Part shown: positions 26,873 to 47,068 of the stretch, one piece after another
Layout of the letters: each line of letters begins with the position of its first letter
How positions within the stretch are numbered: the first letter of the stretch is position 1
Assembly: GCF_965249915.1 (NCBI RefSeq)
Contig: NZ_OZ252257.1
Location: forward strand, 4,850,276-4,914,275
Length of the DNA stretch: 64,000 bases
Reading direction: 5' to 3'
Source: Reyranella sp.
GTDB lineage: Bacteria > Pseudomonadota > Alphaproteobacteria > Reyranellales > Reyranellaceae
Made by a program: the position numbers and the translations under genes
The notes under the pieces: generated by a model
What the model saw: only the letters and a program-made list of their open reading frames with translations
Told to the model about the DNA's origin: nothing
Database searches by the model: none

Positions 26873-27586
26873 ATGGCCTACGTGCAGGGATTTGTTTTGC
26901 CGGTACCGGCCGACAAGAAGGAGGCCTATCGCAAGGCGGCCGCCGACTTCTCGCCGATCGCCAAGGAATTCGGCGCCACCCGCCAGGTCGAGGCCTGGGG
27001 CGACGACGTGCCCGACGGCAAGCTCACCGACTTCAAGGGCGCGGTGAAGGCCAGGCCCGACGAGGTCGTGGTCTTCTCGTGGATCGAATATCCCAGCAAG
27101 GAGGTCGCGGAGGAAGCGCACCGGAAGGTCATGAACGATCCGCGCATGCATGACATGGACATGCCCTTCGACGGACAGCGCATGATCGTCGCCGGCTTCA
27201 CGCCGATCCTCGATGAGGCCGGCGCGAAGGGCGGCAAGACCGGCTACGTCGACGGCTTCCTCGCCGCGGTGCCGACCGCCAACAAACAGGCCTATCTCGA
27301 CATGGCCCGCAAGGCCGCGTCGGTGTTCAGGGACTACGGCGCCGTGCGGATCGTCGAGACCTGGGGCGATGCGGTGCCCGACGGCAAGGTCACCGACTAC
27401 AAGGGCGCGGTGAAGGCCACGCAAGACGAGAAGATCGTCTATTCCTGGGTCGAATGGCCGTCCAAGCAGGTCCGCGACGAGGGCTGGAAGAAGATGATGG
27501 AAGACCAGCGCATGAAGGACCAGCAGATGCCGTTCGACGGCAAGCGCATGATCTATGGCGGCTTCGCGCCCATCCTGGACGTCTGA
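26873..27586 (+). CDS. tandem-duplicated DUF1428 protein
   Basis: ATG 26873 preceded by aggagga. Two complete DUF1428-like halves in one 237-aa ORF (YVQGFVLPVP...MPFDGQRMIVAGF and YVDGFLAAVP...MPFDGKRMIYGGF). Confidence 0.85.
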   Translation: MAYVQGFVLPVPADKKEAYRKAAADFSPIAKEFGATRQVEAWGDDVPDGKLTDFKGAVKARPDEVVVFSWIEYPSKEVAEEAHRKVMNDPRMHDMDMPFDGQRMIVAGFTPILDEAGAKGGKTGYVDGFLAAVPTANKQAYLDMARKAASVFRDYGAVRIVETWGDAVPDGKVTDYKGAVKATQDEKIVYSWVEWPSKQVRDEGWKKMMEDQRMKDQQMPFDGKRMIYGGFAPILDV

Positions 27587-27589
27587 GGA

Positions 27590-28078
27590 ATGGCAATGAC
27601 CGTCGCGAAGAACACGATCTGCATCTGGTTCGACAAGGACGCGGAGGCCGCGGCCCGCTTCTATGCCGCGACCTTTCCCGACAGCGAGGTGACGGCCGTC
27701 CATCGCGCGCCCAGCGACTATCCGTCGGGCAAGAAGGGCGACGTGCTGACCGTGCAGTTCACGGTCTGCGGCATCCCCTGCCTCGGCCTCAATGGCGGGC
27801 CGGTGTTCAAGCAGACCGAAGCCTTCTCGTTCCAGATCGCCACCGACGACCAGGAAGAGACCGACCGCTACTGGAACGCCATCGTCGGCAATGGCGGCCA
27901 GGAAAGCGCCTGCGGCTGGTGCAAGGACCGATGGGGCCTGTCATGGCAGATCACGCCGCGCGTGCTCACCGAGGCGATGGCGGCCGGCGGCGAGGAGGCG
28001 AAGCGCGCCTTCGAGGCGATGATGGGCATGAAGAAGATCGACGTCGCCAGGATCGAGGCGGCGCGTCGAGGCAAGTAA
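27590..28078 (+). CDS. VOC/PhnB-like protein (3-demethylubiquinone-9 3-methyltransferase domain family)
   Basis: 162-aa ORF with family hallmarks (...TVCGIPCLGLNGGP.F...FSFQI...DRYWNAI...CGWCKDRWGLSWQI). Confidence 0.8.
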   Translation: MAMTVAKNTICIWFDKDAEAAARFYAATFPDSEVTAVHRAPSDYPSGKKGDVLTVQFTVCGIPCLGLNGGPVFKQTEAFSFQIATDDQEETDRYWNAIVGNGGQESACGWCKDRWGLSWQITPRVLTEAMAAGGEEAKRAFEAMMGMKKIDVARIEAARRGK

Positions 28079-28098
28079 GCCATCACTTCAAACAATAT

Positions 28099-28110
28099 CC
28101 TCACCCTGAG
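28099..28110. repeat. REP1 copy, left fragment split off by the IS110 insertion
   Basis: cctcaccctgag is identical to the first 12 nt of the intact copies. The rest of the copy resumes at 29235. Confidence 0.7.
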
Positions 28111-28125
28111 CGACCGTCGTGTTGG

Positions 28126-29049
28126 TCAAGCGTTTGCCCATTGTTTTCTGTCCCTGAGGATGGCGTTGAGGATGGTCACGAGCTTGCGCATGCAAGCGAC
28201 GATGGCGACCTTTGCCGGCTTTCCTGCGGCGCGCAGGCGATGATAGGTCAGCGCCAAGGGCAGCTTGCGGCGGATGGAGACGAGGATGCTCATGTAGAGG
28301 GCAGCCCGTACGACGGGTCGTCCTCCCGCGATGGTACGGCGGCCACGCAAGGTGCCGCTGTCGCGATTGAACGGGGCGACGCCGGTCAGGGAAGCAATCT
28401 CGCGTCGGCCGAGACGGCCCAGTTCAGGCAGTTCGGCGATCAGGGTGCGGGCGATCCTGGGCCCGATGCCGGGAACGCTGATCAGAAGGTCCTCCGCTTC
28501 CCGCCAGGTCGGTGTTCCCCGGACGGCGGTGTCGATGTCGTCGTCGATCTGTTCGAGCTGGGCCTTCAAGGTGGCAAGCACGCGATCGACGCTCTTGAGG
28601 GTGCGTCGAACTGTGAGCATGCGCCGGCGATTGCTCTCGGCCCCGATCATCTCGACGAGCTGACGGCGGCGGGCCATCAGTTCGCCCAACAGTCTGGACT
28701 GCTCGTCAGCGAGCGGTCGCGCCGGTGGGTTCACCGCCTCGGCGAAGTGGGCGATGACAGCGGCATCCAGCGCATCGGTCTTGGCCAGCCGTGCGGTGGC
28801 CCGGGCGAAGTCTCGGATCTGCCGTGGATTGACGACCGCCACGGGCAGGCCCGCCGCGCCCAGGCCTGCCGCCACGATCGTCTCGAAGCCACCGGTTGCT
28901 TCGAGCACGATCAGAGCAGGTGCCATTTTACTCAGCCGCCCAATCAGGTCCTCGATGCCTTCTCCGTTGCGGGCAACGGTGAAGGCCTCGCCGGCGGGGC
29001 GCACATGAACATCCAGGCGCTCTTTCGCCACATCGATACCTACGAACAT
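28126..29049 (-). CDS. IS110 family transposase (DEDD RuvC-like domain plus Tnp Ser domain recombinase)
   Basis: ATG 29049. MFVGIDVAKERLDVHV..., LEATGG, AKTDALDA and the C-terminal ISVPGIGP and FNRDSG motifs. The upstream ORF extension runs into REP DNA and was rejected. Confidence 0.9.
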   Translation of the reverse strand: MFVGIDVAKERLDVHVRPAGEAFTVARNGEGIEDLIGRLSKMAPALIVLEATGGFETIVAAGLGAAGLPVAVVNPRQIRDFARATARLAKTDALDAAVIAHFAEAVNPPARPLADEQSRLLGELMARRRQLVEMIGAESNRRRMLTVRRTLKSVDRVLATLKAQLEQIDDDIDTAVRGTPTWREAEDLLISVPGIGPRIARTLIAELPELGRLGRREIASLTGVAPFNRDSGTLRGRRTIAGGRPVVRAALYMSILVSIRRKLPLALTYHRLRAAGKPAKVAIVACMRKLVTILNAILRDRKQWANA

Positions 29050-29234
29050 GGATCTTGGCTCCCATCCTTGCGCATGCGGGCTCGCGGTTCGGCCCAGGCG
29101 ACCGTTCGGGATCACAAAATCAACGGTGGAGGCGCCGAGCTCAGGGACGGGCTTGGAGGCCCCAGGAGCCTGCGGGCTCTCCACCGAGACCGCACCTGCA
29201 ACTCTACGCCGGCGCGGCCGTGTCTTGATACAAG
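29050..29234 (-). ncRNA. candidate IS110 bridge RNA locus (5' non-coding end of the element)
   Basis: 185-nt non-coding left end, in the position and size range where IS110-group elements encode bridge RNA. It contains a 7-nt match to the target flank. Structure not verified. Confidence 0.35.
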
Positions 29235-29337
29235 GAGCGGCCCGAAGGGTCGCGTCTCGAAGGGTGGGCACGCGCACCCCGTCTGTTGCCCATCCTTCGA
29301 GACGCCGTGCTTTGCGCGGCTCCTCAGCATGAGGTGG
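29235..29337. repeat. REP1 copy, remainder (right of the IS110 insertion)
   Basis: gagcgg...gcgtctcgaagggtgggcacgcgcacc...gcccatccttcgagacg...ctcctcagcatgaggtgg. Confidence 0.75.
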
Positions 29338-29352
29338 ATTTACAGAGAGACG

Positions 29353-29670
29353 CTACGCCGCGTCGGCGGTGATCGTGTCGGCGTCGTTGTCGACCACGAC
29401 GGCGGTCTCGAAATAGCGGATGTCGGGCGGGGCGCCGTAGCGCTCGGCGATATAGGCCTGCCATTGCGGCGTATAGACCGCCTCGGCGTCGGCGCGGCTC
29501 TTCCAGAGATAGACACCGCCGCCGATCCGCTTCTCCGCGTCGAACAGATAGTATTTCCGGACCAGCCCCTTCATGCCGCGATATTTCGGCGCCGAACCCT
29601 TGAACAGTTCGGCGGCCTTCTTCGCATCGATGTCGGCCGGCAGCTTGAAATTCACGATGGCGGTGATCAT
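29353..29670 (-). CDS. YdhR-like putative monooxygenase (dimeric alpha/beta-barrel family)
   Basis: 105-aa ORF from ATG 29670, preceded by ggagga. MITAIVNFKLP...GGGVYLWKSRADAE resembles YdhR. Confidence 0.6.
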   Translation of the reverse strand: MITAIVNFKLPADIDAKKAAELFKGSAPKYRGMKGLVRKYYLFDAEKRIGGGVYLWKSRADAEAVYTPQWQAYIAERYGAPPDIRYFETAVVVDNDADTITADAA

Positions 29671-29681
29671 GCGATCCTCCT

Positions 29682-31079
29682 TCAAACGGGGGCGGCGCGC
29701 TCCTCGCGCACCTTCCAGAGCAGGATGAAGCCTACCACCAGGAAGAACAGAACGCAGGCCATGCCGATGCGGGTGGACTGCGTCGCCGCCGTGACGGTCG
29801 CGATGGCGAACGGCGCCATCCACGCCGTGGCCCGGCCCGAGAGGGCGAACAGGCCGTAGAATTCCCCCGTCATGCCCGGCGGCGCGATGCGGCCCACCAT
29901 CGTGCGGCTGGCCGCCTGCATCGGCCCCATGCAGAAGCCGAGAATGAGCGCGAAGCCCATCAGCACCTTTTCCTGCAGCGAGCCGAACAGGCCACGGGTC
30001 GGGCTGATCGGGTCGGCCGGCACGACGTAGAAGACGTGCGTGGCCGTGACGCCGACGATGCCCAGGGTCGCCACGATCACCCCGGCGATGGCGATCTGCA
30101 CCGTCCGCTTGCTGCCGATCCAGTCGTCCAGCCGGCCGCCGAGGAACGCACCGGGAATCGCGAAGACCGTCAGGACGATGCCGAAGATGCCGAGCGTCAC
30201 CGTGCTCCAGCCGAAGGTCGCGGCGGCATAGACACCGCCGAAGGCGATGATGGCCGCGAGCCCGTCATTGTAGAGCATGAAGGCGATGAGATAGCGCAGC
30301 GCGTTGCCGTAGCGCGGCAGACGCTTCAGCGTCGAGAGCAGCGAGCGGCCGCCTTCCCGCGCGGCGACGAGCAGGGGCTGGCGCCGCGCACCGGCGGAAT
30401 CCGGCGTGAACAGGAACATCGGCAGCACGAAGATCATGATCCAAAGCGCCGACGCGGGCCCGACCAGGCGCTCCAGCTCGTGGCTGGCGGGATCGAGGCC
30501 GAACAGCGGCCGGTCGTTCGAGGCCGCCAGGCCGAACAGGGCCGGCATCGACACGGCAAGCACGACGATCAGCGAGACCAGGCCGCCGCAATAGCCCAGC
30601 CCCCAGCCGTAGCCGCTCAGCCGGCCCATGCGCTCGGGCCGTACGATGTTCGGGAGCTGGGCATTGTTGAACACGATCGACATCTCAGCACCGACCGTGG
30701 CCAGGATGACCGCCCAGCTGATCGGCAGGATGAGGTCGGGCCGGTTGGGATAGGCGAACCACAGGCCGGCGCATCCAACGACCAGCAGGAGCTGGAACGC
30801 GAGGATGAAGGGCTTGCGACGGCCGCCGGCATCGGCCATGGCGCCGAGGAACGGGCTCATCAGCGCGATCAGCACGCCCGAAGCCGATTGCGTGAACCCC
30901 CACGCCGCTTGCCCCTGCACCGGATCGCCGACCAGCACGTTGGCGAAGTAGGGCGCGAAGATGAAGGTGGTGATGATGGTGAAGAAGGGCTGGTTGGCCC
31001 AGTCGAACAGCGCCCAGCTGAACTGGCCGAGAGTCGAGGCTTCACGGACGGGCGGCGGGGCCGCGTGAGAATCTGTCAT
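29682..31079 (-). CDS. MFS transporter (UMF1/Atg22-like)
   Basis: 465-aa polytopic ORF with about 12 TM helices. N-terminal ...WALFDWANQPFFTIITTFIFAPYF is typical of the UMF1 family. Confidence 0.85.
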   Translation of the reverse strand: MTDSHAAPPPVREASTLGQFSWALFDWANQPFFTIITTFIFAPYFANVLVGDPVQGQAAWGFTQSASGVLIALMSPFLGAMADAGGRRKPFILAFQLLLVVGCAGLWFAYPNRPDLILPISWAVILATVGAEMSIVFNNAQLPNIVRPERMGRLSGYGWGLGYCGGLVSLIVVLAVSMPALFGLAASNDRPLFGLDPASHELERLVGPASALWIMIFVLPMFLFTPDSAGARRQPLLVAAREGGRSLLSTLKRLPRYGNALRYLIAFMLYNDGLAAIIAFGGVYAAATFGWSTVTLGIFGIVLTVFAIPGAFLGGRLDDWIGSKRTVQIAIAGVIVATLGIVGVTATHVFYVVPADPISPTRGLFGSLQEKVLMGFALILGFCMGPMQAASRTMVGRIAPPGMTGEFYGLFALSGRATAWMAPFAIATVTAATQSTRIGMACVLFFLVVGFILLWKVREERAAPV

Positions 31080-39334: not shown

Positions 39335-39437
39335 CCTCATACTGAGGAGCGCGCCGCAGGCGCGCGTCTCGAAGCATGGGACGAGCACCGCGCGTGTTGC
39401 CGATCCTTCGAGACGCGGCCTGCGGCCGCTCCTCAGA
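39335..39437. repeat. REP1 copy (left arm plus most of the right arm), truncated by IS insertion
   Basis: cctcatactgaggagcgcgccgcaggcgcgcgtctcgaagcatggg...ccgatccttcgagacgcgg...gctcctcag. The remainder resumes at 41039. Confidence 0.75.
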
Positions 39438-39504
39438 TTCTATGTGGCGACGAGAGGTCGAGAGGTAGGTTTGGAGTTGCGAGAACCGAACCTACGGAGA
39501 AGTT

Positions 39505-43210: not shown

Positions 43211-43346
43211 CCTCACCCTGAGGAGCGCTCCAGAGGAGCGCGTCTCGAAGGGTGGGCACGAGCACCTCGCCTGTTGCCCATCCTTCGAGACGGCGCGGAG
43301 TTTACCCCGAGGTATTCGAGGGGCGCCTTCTCAGGATGAGGGTGAG
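43211..43346. repeat. REP1 family element, complete copy, intercistronic
   Basis: cctcaccctgaggagcgc...gcgtctcgaagggtgggcacgagcacc...gcccatccttcgagacgg...ttctcaggatgagggtgag. It lies between the SBP and permease genes of one operon. Confidence 0.8.
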
Positions 43347-46933: not shown

Positions 46934-47068
46934 CCTCACCCTGAGGAGCGCGCCGCAGGAGCGCGTCTCGAAGGGTGGGCACGAGCACCACGTCTGTTGC
47001 CCATCCTTCGAGACGGCCCTTCGGGCCTCCTCAGGATGAGGTGGTGTGGGTGAACCTGAAGCGAAAAG
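46934..47068. repeat. REP1 family element, complete copy
   Basis: Best-preserved nested palindrome. Left arm cctcaccctgaggagcgcgccgcaggagcgcgtctcgaagggtgggc; right arm gcccatccttcgagacggcccttcgggcctcctcaggatgaggtgg. It abuts the def stop codon. Confidence 0.8.

What the first reader, a model, noticed from the sequence alone, without database searches (positions are those of the whole stretch)
28099..29337. IS110-group element precisely inserted in a REP1 left arm, with CT core at both junctions and a 185-nt 5' non-coding end as candidate bridge RNA
Seen in the sequence:
- An intact recombinase ORF (28126-29049, minus strand) carries the IS110 hallmarks GIDVAK, LEATGG, KTDALDA and FNRDSG.
- Joining the flanks 28099-28110 (cctcaccctgag) and 29235-29337 (gagcgg...) rebuilds a full REP1 copy like the empty sites at 43211-43346 and 46934-47068. 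The insertion is therefore simple and precise.
- In element orientation the dinucleotide CT sits at both junctions (AG on the + strand, 28109-28110 and 29233-29234). IS621-type elements are known to be flanked by their CT core in this way.
- Only 15 nt follow the ORF, whereas 185 nt (29050-29234) precede it.

Established knowledge: IS110-group elements encode a bridge RNA of roughly this size in that left end. It base-pairs with both target and donor DNA.

A further match: the RNA-sense sequence ccctgag (complement of 29140-29146) equals the + strand target flank at 28104-28110. This is a short match, but it is in the right place for a target guide.
Basis: partly seen in the sequence, partly recalled or inferred. 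Interest (0 to 1): 0.7.

Follow-up and report, generated by a model that had tools for sequence, protein, structure and literature searches.

The report
Bridge-RNA insertion sequence in a REP
This is a compact, intact mobile element of the IS110 family whose own small "bridge" RNA reads both its insertion site in a repeated palindrome and its own ends; it is a convincing but ordinary new example of a mechanism described in 2024.

Summary
A 1,124-bp element (window 28111-29234, minus strand, plus one CT core copy) sits precisely inside a REP-like palindrome. It encodes an intact 307-aa IS110-family recombinase. Pfam finds the DEDD and Transposase_20 domains, and NCBIfam names it "IS110 family RNA-guided transposase". 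All five IS621 catalytic residues are present.

The 185-nt left end folds into two stem/internal-loop/hairpin modules, and this fold is supported by compensatory changes across relatives. The loop strands lie in the IS621 geometry:
- left target guide (LTG) CAGGCUCCU
- right target guide (RTG) CCCUGAG, 7/7 match
- left donor guide (LDG) ACGGUCGCC, 8/9 match
- right donor guide (RDG) AU-GC-GCAAG

Across 43 relatives with distinct guide pairs, each guide tracks its own element's flank or end far better than the flank or end of other elements (0/10,000 permutations). All four other Reyranella copies sit at the same REP position, and their RTGs change together with the REP variant they occupy. A TTGAC-N17-TATCNN promoter-like motif forms only across the joined ends.

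Transcription, circle formation and current activity are untested. It is a new member of a known kind; the nearest named IS is ISMno7, at about 57% amino-acid identity. Interest is low to moderate.

The parts
28111..29234 (-). Inserted element: 1,124 bp counted with one of the two CT core copies. The element could equally be 28109-29232.
   Evidence: Rejoined flanks are colinear with the empty REP copies. Five Reyranella copies share these ends. Element lengths in relatives are 1,123-1,231 bp.
28126..29049 (-). Recombinase gene, 307 aa plus the TGA stop. Catalytic residues are D6, E50, D92, D95 (RuvC-like DEDD) and S231-G232.
   Evidence: Pfam PF01548 (E 3e-24) and PF02371 (E 2e-14). NCBIfam NF033542, 223.5 bits against a cut-off of 140. 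PDB matches to IS621 (E 2.5e-32) and ISCro4 (E 1.2e-35), with the motifs aligned.
29050..29234 (-). Left end (185 nt) encoding the bridge RNA
   Evidence: Covariance model R1 gives a single hit in the window, at 29040-29234 minus strand, 179 bits, E 7e-51. The consensus fold is supported by covariation.
29233..29234 (-). Left copy of the CT core
28109..28110 (-). Right copy of the CT core
29228..29234 (-). Right donor (RD) CTTGTAT at the left-end terminus. It overlaps the -10-like TATCAA at 29225-29230.
   Evidence: The terminus CTTGTA(T/A)C is conserved in about 60 relatives. It pairs with the RDG.
29188..29219 (-). 5' stem-loop (element nt 16-47)
   Evidence: Seen in the MFE fold only. The loop motif GUA..GU is conserved in the alignment, but covariation was not tested.
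29174..29186 (-). Basal stem of the target-binding loop, 5' strand (nt 49-61). It pairs with 29124-29136.
   Evidence: 12 pairs, 9 of them with compensatory changes, 98.3% of cells paired.
29164..29172 (-). Left target guide (LTG) CAGGCUCCU (nt 63-71). Same sense as the left target ..GCTC+CT.
   Evidence: 6 contiguous matches in the window. Across the family, 184/301 non-core matches against 109.6+-7.5 when permuted, 0/10,000.
29149..29162 (-). Hairpin inside the target-binding loop (nt 73-86)
   Evidence: helix 2
29140..29146 (-). Right target guide (RTG) CCCUGAG (nt 89-95). Complementary to the top strand CT+CAGGG.
   Evidence: 7/7 match in all five Reyranella copies, with co-variation. Across the family, 184/215 non-core matches against 69.4+-7.7 when permuted, 0/10,000.
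29124..29136 (-). Basal stem of the target-binding loop, 3' strand (nt 99-111)
29097..29105 (-). Left donor guide (LDG) ACGGUCGCC (nt 130-138). Same sense as the right-end terminus ACGGTCG+C(T).
   Evidence: 8/9 match in the window. Across the family, 125/126 non-core matches against 106.2+-2.9 when permuted, 0/10,000.
29078..29095 (-). Hairpin inside the donor-binding loop (nt 140-157)
   Evidence: helix 4
29067..29075 (-). Right donor guide (RDG) AU-GC-GCAAG (nt 160-168). It pairs discontiguously with CTTGT-AT.
   Evidence: Co-variation across relatives: GCAAG/ACAAG with CTTGT, AGGAG with CTCCT, ACGAG with CTCGT, and AU with ..AT versus UU with ..AA. Durrant 2024 describes the same 9-nt RNA to 7-nt DNA pattern for IS621.
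29060..29064 (-). Closing stem of the donor-binding loop, 3' strand UGGGA (nt 171-175). It pairs with 29107-29111 and contains the likely Shine-Dalgarno sequence GGGAG.
   Evidence: helix 3. The Shine-Dalgarno reading is inference.
28111..28117 (-). Left donor (LD) ACGGTCG at the right-end terminus
28124..28129 (-). TTGACC, a -35-like hexamer that contains the TGA stop codon. With TATCAA it forms TTGACC-N17-TATCAA only on the circle junction.
   Evidence: TTGAC is invariant in 47/48 distinct relatives, including those whose stop codon lies elsewhere, and the 17-nt spacing is constant.
28099..28108 (.). Right target flank (CAGGGTGAGG in element sense), which is the outer end of the REP left arm
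29235..29337 (.). Rest of the REP-like palindrome. It holds the left target GCTC (29235-29238) and, directly next to it, a 7-bp GC-rich hairpin (29237-29253).
   Evidence: The hairpin is present in 7/7 occupied or empty sites with different sequences.

Best explanation
This is an IS110-group insertion sequence of the IS621 type that moves by bridge-RNA-guided recombination.

**What is shown**
- The left end encodes an RNA with two internal loops.
- In the first loop, the 5' strand (LTG, ..GCUCCU) has the sense of the target's left half including the CT core. The 3' strand (RTG, CCCUGAG) is complementary to the core plus the right half.
- In the second loop, LDG (ACGGUCGC) has the sense of the element's right terminus. 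RDG (AU..GCAAG) is complementary to its left terminus.
- The recombinase has the complete DEDD + Ser catalytic set.

**What is inferred, by homology with IS621**
- Rare excision joins the right end to the left end into a circle.
- The joint creates a TTGACC-N17-TATCAA promoter, which drives the bridge RNA and the recombinase.
- A recombinase tetramer holding one RNA pairs the circle junction with the REP site GCTC|CT|CAGGG and exchanges strands at CT.
- This inserts the element and leaves CT on both sides without a conventional duplication.
- The nucleotides after RTG (C) and after RDG (GA) can pair with LD position 7 (G) and LT positions 6-7 (TC). These are the positions IS621 uses as handshake guides.
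- The GC-rich hairpin of the REP next to the left target may add structural specificity, as reported for ISPpu10.
For: - **Protein.** Searches give family and domain matches and homology to the solved IS621 and ISCro4 recombinases. Searches show the catalytic residues aligned.
- **Precise insertion with a CT core.**
- **Fold.** RNAalifold recovers both stem/loop/hairpin modules without guidance. 96.1% of cells are paired, 12 of 25 pairs carry compensatory changes, 0/500 shuffles reach this, and slid controls reach at most 51%. R1 gives one hit in the window and hits in the left ends of the relatives.
- **Guides.** Permutation tests for RTG, LTG and LDG each give 0/10,000. RDG co-varies, including the discontiguous AU/UU part. 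The geometry is taken from Durrant 2024.
- **Natural retargeting within Reyranella.** RTG CCCUGAG, UCCUGAG and UGCUGAG sit at CTCAGGG, CTCAGGA and CTCAGCA respectively.
- **Junction promoter motif.** It is conserved in 47/48 relatives. [quoted passage not shown]
- **Handshake-position complementarity.** 59/63 and 58/63.
- **Target hairpin.** Present in 7/7 sites, parallel to ISPpu10.
Against: - No transcript, circle or transposition data exist for this element.
- The window holds a single copy, and two perfect 11-nt targets 14-18 kb away are empty. Activity may therefore be low or absent.
- The -10-like hexamer of this copy (TATCAA) lacks the usual T at position 6. The promoter scan finds nothing in the integrated context.
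- LTG positions 1-3 do not match the target in any Reyranella copy.
- The last LDG base (C) mismatches the core T.
- Conservation of TTGAC and TATC could also reflect protein binding rather than promoter function.
Confidence: 0.9

Rival explanations
1. The element is of this kind but is an inactive fossil copy. It is a once-mobile IS now fixed in this REP, and its RNA and promoter no longer work.
For: - There is one copy in 64 kb, although two exact targets are nearby.
- The -10-like box lacks T6, and no promoter is found in the integrated state.
- Reyranella copies differ by 7-14% in DNA, so they are not recent bursts.
- One copy (L004) is 1 bp shorter and looks frameshifted.
Against: - The ORF is intact with all catalytic residues.
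- All four guides still match their DNA.
- The donor-binding loop region is identical in four of the five Reyranella copies, and the fifth (L003) differs by one base just 3' of the RDG, while third-codon positions have drifted. This indicates purifying selection.
- IS621 is likewise weakly expressed and rarely excised when integrated.
Confidence: 0.2
2. Target choice is made mainly by the protein recognising REP structure or sequence. The left-end RNA is only a leader that regulates translation of the recombinase.
For: - The target carries a structure-conserved hairpin beside the core.
- The basal stem of the donor-binding loop overlaps the Shine-Dalgarno and start region. Cognate duplexes are more stable than permuted ones: -9.36 against -7.86+-0.31 kcal/mol.
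Against: A leader with no guide role would not co-vary base for base with flanking host DNA in 43 independent lineages that target unrelated sequences. It also would not track REP variants within one genus.
Confidence: 0.04
3. It is an IS1111-group (seekRNA-type) element whose guide RNA lies downstream of the gene.
For: It has the same protein family domains.
Against: - Only 15 nt lie between the stop codon and the element end.
- The structured, co-varying RNA is in the 185-nt left end.
- The Durrant 2024 criterion is that the left end is longer than the right end in the IS110 group.
Confidence: 0.01

Closest known systems
IS621 (E. coli), the IS110-group bridge recombinase system (Durrant et al. 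2024, PMC11208160; Hiraizumi et al. 2024, PMC11208158)
   Same: - The recombinase has a DEDD RuvC-like domain, a coiled coil and a Tnp domain with the catalytic Ser-Gly.
- The core is CT.
- The bridge RNA is in the left end and has a target-binding loop and a donor-binding loop.
- Strand rules for LTG, RTG, LDG and RDG are the same.
- The RDG is discontiguous, 9 nt of RNA against 7 nt of DNA.
- A promoter forms across the RE-LE junction.
- The natural target is a REP.
- From my memory of the IS621 donor sequence, which I did not find in the paper's text, the left terminus CTTGTAT appears to be shared.
   Different: - The proteins are distantly related: phmmer E 2.5e-32, roughly one-third identity by eye, not computed.
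- The recombinase is 307 aa against 326 aa.
- The element is shorter, at 1,124 bp.
- The RTG is 7 nt rather than 4 nt.
- The right end is only 15 nt, and the stop codon lies inside the -35 box.
- The target is different (GCTC|CT|CAGGG), in an alphaproteobacterial REP.
ISPpu10 (Pseudomonas putida), REP-targeting IS110 with "dual-match" recognition (bioRxiv 10.64898/2026.03.19.712850)
   Same: It inserts into one position of a REP. The left target forms the 3' arm of a GC-rich stem-loop whose structure is better conserved than its sequence.
   Different: Whether the hairpin contributes to recognition here is untested. Sequences and host differ.
ISMno7 (Methylobacterium nodulans), the nearest IS named in annotated records
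   Same: It is an IS110-family transposase of the same length class, about 57% identical over 304 aa.
   Different: It is too divergent to be the same IS. I did not examine its ends or its RNA.
ISCro4 transposase (PDB 9t56)
   Same: It is the best-scoring solved homologue (E 1.2e-35, residues 2-299), with the same catalytic motifs.
   Different: It is a distant homologue from an enterobacterial host.

Membership tests
IS110 family, IS110 group (bridge-RNA-guided insertion sequences) | Recombinase with an N-terminal DEDD RuvC-like domain and a C-terminal Tnp (Transposase_20) domain carrying the catalytic serine | tested here: met
   - PF01548 and PF02371.
- NF033542 scores above its cut-off.
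- D6/E50/D92/D95/S231 align with IS621 D11/E60/D102/D105/S241.
IS110 family, IS110 group (bridge-RNA-guided insertion sequences) | Precise insertion without a conventional target duplication, flanked on both sides by the 2-nt core (CT) | tested here: met
   The empty sites carry one CT and the occupied site carries two. The other four Reyranella copies show the same.
IS110 family, IS110 group (bridge-RNA-guided insertion sequences) | Long non-coding left end and short right end, with the ncRNA in the left end | tested here: met
   185 nt against 15 nt. The criterion is from Durrant 2024.
IS110 family, IS110 group (bridge-RNA-guided insertion sequences) | ncRNA fold with two internal loops, each enclosing a hairpin (target-binding and donor-binding loops) | tested here: met
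   RNAalifold consensus. Pair counts give 96.1% paired, 12 compensatory pairs and 0/500 shuffles.
IS110 family, IS110 group (bridge-RNA-guided insertion sequences) | Loop strands complementary to target and donor in the LTG/RTG/LDG/RDG strand geometry, each including the core | tested here: met
   - Window matches: LTG 6, RTG 7, LDG 8, RDG 5+2 nt.
- Family-wide permutation tests give 0/10,000.
- The core T is often unpaired in LTG and LDG.
IS110 family, IS110 group (bridge-RNA-guided insertion sequences) | [quoted passage not shown] | tested here: inconclusive
   TTGAC-N17-TA(T/A)C(T/A)(T/C) is conserved in 47/48 relatives. This copy's -10 is TATCAA, which lacks T6. This is motif evidence only.
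IS110 family, IS110 group (bridge-RNA-guided insertion sequences) | Expressed ncRNA bound by the recombinase, circular intermediate, and RNA-dependent recombination | not testable with these tools
   Needs RNA-seq or RACE, outward PCR and recombination assays.
IS110 family, IS110 group (bridge-RNA-guided insertion sequences) | Short (2-3 bp) sub-terminal inverted repeat flanking the donor (Durrant 2024, Extended Data Fig. 10) | tested here: inconclusive
   By eye, many relatives have AAG...CTT flanking the donor. This copy has ACG...CAA, which is not complementary. No statistics were run.
IS1111 group (guide RNA in the right end, long sub-terminal inverted repeats) | Right end longer than the left end, with the ncRNA downstream of the gene | tested here: not met
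   The right end is 15 nt.
ISPpu10-type "sequence-structure dual match" targets | Target-encoded stem-loop whose 3' arm is the distal left target, with structure more conserved than sequence | tested here: met
   A 6-7-bp stem with a 3-nt loop, ending 2 nt before the core, is present in 7/7 sites with 5 different stem sequences. Its functional role cannot be tested here.
Rfam RNA families | A hit to a curated family | tested here: not met
   There is no hit at gathering thresholds in the window. Only chance-level hits appear at E<=10. No bridge-RNA family matched.

The most novel reading that the evidence does not exclude
Two readings go beyond the textbook picture and are not excluded.

1. 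[quoted passage not shown] Folding of a functional bridge RNA and translation of the recombinase from the same transcript would then be mutually exclusive, giving a built-in switch that sets the RNA-to-protein ratio.

2. Sub-lineages of one IS diversify by single-base reprogramming of the 7-nt RTG, so as to partition variants and arms of one REP family. Two RTG types coexist in one Reyranella genome, each in its cognate REP variant. This would be natural guide-target co-evolution on a repeat family.
Probability: 0.3. Interest if true: 0.45.

Novelty: new member of a known kind. Interest (0 to 1): 0.27.

Why it matters
The finding adds no new mechanism. It does give a clean, fully dissected natural example of bridge-RNA targeting in an under-studied alphaproteobacterial lineage (Reyranella and relatives).

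- It is a very compact orthologue: 1,124 bp, a 307-aa recombinase, and a 15-nt right end with the stop codon inside the -35 box.
- It has a long 7-nt RTG, which in IS621 engineering improves specificity.
- The clade of more than 40 orthologues, with their guides and cognate sites read off the genomes, could feed searches for small bridge recombinases.
- For genome annotation, it shows that this "non-coding" 185 nt is a functional RNA gene.
- It also shows that the REP copies at 43216-43226 and 46939-46949 are ready-made landing sites.

Tried and rejected
- **Rfam.** Searches at gathering thresholds and at E<=10 gave only chance-level hits such as MIR5534 on the REP hairpin and toga_FSE. No curated bridge-RNA family matched.
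- **Unconstrained MFE fold.** The fold of the 185 nt pairs LTG with RTG because both contain the core. I rejected it in favour of the covariation-supported consensus.
- **First regex parsing of the target loop.** It picked wrong sites in several loci. I replaced it with the covariance-model alignment.
- **First LDG test.** It was off by one base and gave a null result. I corrected it.
- **Exact-protein look-up for further copies.** It found nothing on record.
- **Promoter scan of the integrated locus.** No promoter was found. One terminator-like site after the target-loop stem appeared, at chance frequency.
- **A fixed LTG register.** This does not hold for all relatives. In L008/L010 and L012-L017 the best match is shifted by one position within C-runs (by eye). 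I left this unresolved.
- **IS1111/seekRNA placement.** Considered and rejected, because the right end is only 15 nt.
Full report
**1. What is in the sequence**

The minus-strand ORF at 28126-29049 is open and encodes 307 aa (MFVGIDVAKERL...RDRKQWANA). Pfam finds DEDD_Tnp_IS110 (E 3e-24) and Transposase_20 (E 2e-14). NCBIfam's equivalog model NF033542, "IS110 family RNA-guided transposase", scores 223.5 bits against a cut-off of 140.

The protein matches the solved IS621 (8wt6, E 2.5e-32) and ISCro4 (9t56, E 1.2e-35) recombinases over residues 2-299. D6, E50, D92, D95 and S231-G232 align with IS621 D11, E60, D102, D105 and S241-G242. Mutating any of the five IS621 catalytic residues (D11, E60, D102, D105, S241) abolishes recombination.

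**2. The insertion is precise**

I joined 28099-28110 to 29235-29337 and aligned the result with the empty repeats at 43211 and 46934. The alignment is colinear through CCTCACCCTGAG|GAGCG. The empty sites hold one AG (CT in element sense) at the joint, and the occupied site holds one on each side.

The insert is therefore 28111-29234, which is 1,124 bp with one core copy. 185 nt lie before the ATG and 15 nt after the stop codon. The host repeat is a nested palindrome whose core motif occurs 7 times in the window against 0.05 expected.

The element lies between two convergent genes. One is a 3-demethylubiquinone-9 3-methyltransferase-family (PF06983) gene ending at 28078 on the + strand. The other is a weak, below-cut-off ydhR-like gene ending at 29353 on the minus strand. 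Only read-through from the ydhR-like gene, across the REP, could transcribe the integrated element.

**3. Relatives**

A scan of one genome per species returned 80 loci. The closest are four copies in Reyranella: 91-97% amino-acid identity and 86-93% DNA identity. The host is therefore Reyranella or a close relative.

All four sit at the same place in the same kind of palindrome...CTC|CT|TGTATCAAG...ACGACGGTCG|CT|CAG(G/C)(G/A)TGAGG. More distant relatives (51-71% identity) come from Alphaproteobacteria, Dehalococcoidia and other groups. They share the termini CT|TGTA(T/A)C and AC(A/G)G(T/C)(C/T)G|CT but lie in unrelated flanks.

**4. The RNA fold**

I aligned 24 left ends with MAFFT. RNAalifold, without guidance, predicted two modules. 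Each is a basal stem, an internal loop and a hairpin within the loop.

I counted a cleaned 25-pair version of this structure:
- 96.1% of cells form pairs, against 85.5% in shuffles.
- 12 pairs show changes on both sides, against 6.7 expected.
- 0/500 shuffles reach these values.
- When the partners are slid by 1-3 columns, pairing falls to 29-51%.
- The basal stem of the first module carries most of the signal, with 9 of 12 pairs compensatory.

A covariance model built from this alignment (R1) gives exactly one hit in the window, at 29040-29234 on the minus strand (179 bits). It also hits the left ends of the relatives. Rfam has nothing that matches.

**5. The loops read the DNA**

Durrant et al. 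2024 define the geometry:
- LTG has the sense of the top-strand left target including the core.
- RTG is complementary to the top-strand core plus the right target.
- LDG and RDG do the same for the donor, which is the right end joined to the left end.

In this element:
- The first loop's 5' strand is CAGGCUCCU. The target is GCCGCTC|CT, giving 6 contiguous matches.
- Its 3' strand is CCCUGAG, against CT|CAGGG, giving 7/7.
- The second loop's 5' strand is ACGGUCGCC. The right end is ACGGTCG|CT, giving 8/9.
- Its 3' strand is AU-GC-GCAAG. This pairs with CTTGT-AT across a 2-nt bulge, the same discontiguous pattern of 9 RNA nt against 7 DNA bases reported for IS621.

In shuffles of the 185 nt, the three longer matches never occur together (0/20,000).

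The family supplies the stronger test. I took guide columns from the model alignment and flanks from each locus, giving 43 distinct guide pairs, and permuted flanks among elements:

| Guide | Non-core matches observed | Permuted (mean +- sd) | Permutations reaching observed |
|---|---|---|---|
| RTG | 184/215 | 69.4+-7.7 | 0/10,000 |
| LTG | 184/301 | 109.6+-7.5 | 0/10,000 |
| LDG | 125/126 | 106.2+-2.9 | 0/10,000 |

RDG co-varies as well. GCAAG/ACAAG goes with CTTGT, AGGAG with CTCCT and ACGAG with CTCGT. The upstream dinucleotide is AU when the terminus reads ..AT and UU when it reads ..AA.

Within Reyranella the RTG changes together with the REP variant occupied. CCCUGAG sits at CTCAGGG (window copy and L003), UCCUGAG at CTCAGGA (L001, L004) and UGCUGAG at CTCAGCA (L002). 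L002 and L004 come from the same chromosome, so two guide variants coexist there, each in its cognate site.

**6. Further features**

(a) *Junction promoter motif.* On the joined ends, 47 of 48 distinct relatives have TTGAC, then a 17-nt spacer, then TA(T/A)C(T/A)(T/C). This holds even where the stop codon is elsewhere. Here the motif is TTGACC-N17-TATCAA, and the TGA stop lies inside the -35 box. This matches the junction promoter shown for IS621. However, the -10 here lacks T6, and the integrated locus has no promoter-like site.

(b) *Handshake positions.* The base after RTG is C in 59/63 sites, opposite the invariant G at LD position 7. The base after RDG is G, opposite C at LT position 7 in 58/63 independent targets. 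These are the positions of the IS621 handshake guides. In this copy the GA after RDG complements the TC of the left target.

(c) *Target hairpin.* The LTG's first three bases never match in Reyranella. They overlie the 3' arm of a 6-7-bp GC-rich hairpin that ends 2 nt before the core. This hairpin is present in all seven occupied or empty sites, with five different stem sequences. A preprint reports the same geometry as a structural specificity determinant for ISPpu10.

(d) *Translation start occlusion.* A further stem pairs the segment upstream of the donor loop with the start-codon or Shine-Dalgarno region. Cognate duplexes average -9.36 kcal/mol against -7.86+-0.31 for permuted partners. 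In this copy GAUUUUG pairs with CCAAGAUC, and the GGGAG of the closing stem is the likely ribosome-binding site. Any regulatory meaning is inference.

(e) *Empty targets.* Two empty REP copies carry the exact 11-nt target GCTCCTCAGGG, at 43216-43226 and 46939-46949 on the minus strand.

**7. Verdict**

Both the observation and the interpretation hold. The element meets every sequence-level criterion of the IS110 group. It fails the IS1111 criterion because its right end is only 15 nt.

It works like IS621 and is a member of that group, but it is a distant one. The nearest named IS, ISMno7, is about 57% identical. REP targeting by IS110 elements has been known since 2006 and bridge RNAs since 2024, so this is a new member of a known kind.

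Still untested are the transcript, the circle, current activity, the promoter, and the roles of the target hairpin and of the start-region stem.

Noticed in passing
window 43216-43226 and 46939-46949 (minus strand); also 39340-39350 and 39428-39438: Two empty copies of the same REP family carry the exact 11-nt target GCTCCTCAGGG in the same orientation as the resident element. A fourth, more divergent REP copy near 39340-39440 has variant arms (GCTCCTCAGTA and GCTCCTCAGAT).
   Followed up: partly
window 29319-29329 (+ strand), the other arm of the occupied REP: The opposite arm reads GCTCCTCAGCA. It mismatches this element's RTG at two positions but is a perfect match for the RTG variant UGCUGAG carried by the Reyranella copy L002. 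Different guide variants would therefore land in different arms and orientations of one REP.
   Followed up: partly
L023 and L025 (about 1300-1316 and 2440-2470); L005 right flank: More distant relatives also sit in REP-like palindromes containing CCTGAGGAGCGC. L023 and L025 use the CT on the opposite strand, 2 nt away (CGTC|CT|GAGGAGC), with a matching RTG UCCUCAG. The same repeat motif is thus hit in a different register.
   Followed up: no
window 29120-29138 (minus strand): The 3' strand of the target-loop basal stem is followed by GAUUUUGUG, and the scan flags it as terminator-like. The hit is at chance frequency (1 found, 1.0 expected), and the U-run is specific to the Reyranella copies. 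If real, it could yield a separate target-loop RNA.
   Followed up: no
L004 (Reyranella MAG chromosome, 1501-2420): This copy is 1 bp shorter (element 1,123 bp), and the protein match is split or weaker (E 1e-163 against 0 for its sister copies). This suggests a frameshifted, probably dead copy that still sits in a cognate REP site.
   Followed up: no
L016 (1321-1510); L020, L028, L051 (second model hits elsewhere or on the other strand): L016 has a left end that diverges from its sister copies upstream of nt ~47, so it is truncated or rearranged. Several Dehalococcoidia loci contain a second bridge-RNA-like hit 1-2 kb away, which suggests neighbouring or nested elements.
   Followed up: no
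window 26873-27586 (+ strand): The ORF has two tandem DUF1428 domains (E 1e-84, two stretches), just upstream of the 3-demethylubiquinone-9 3-methyltransferase-family (PF06983) gene that flanks the REP.
   Followed up: no
window 27454-29859 (+ strand): An 801-aa ORF runs antisense through the whole element and both flanks. It is a typical high-GC antisense artefact, not a gene.
   Followed up: no
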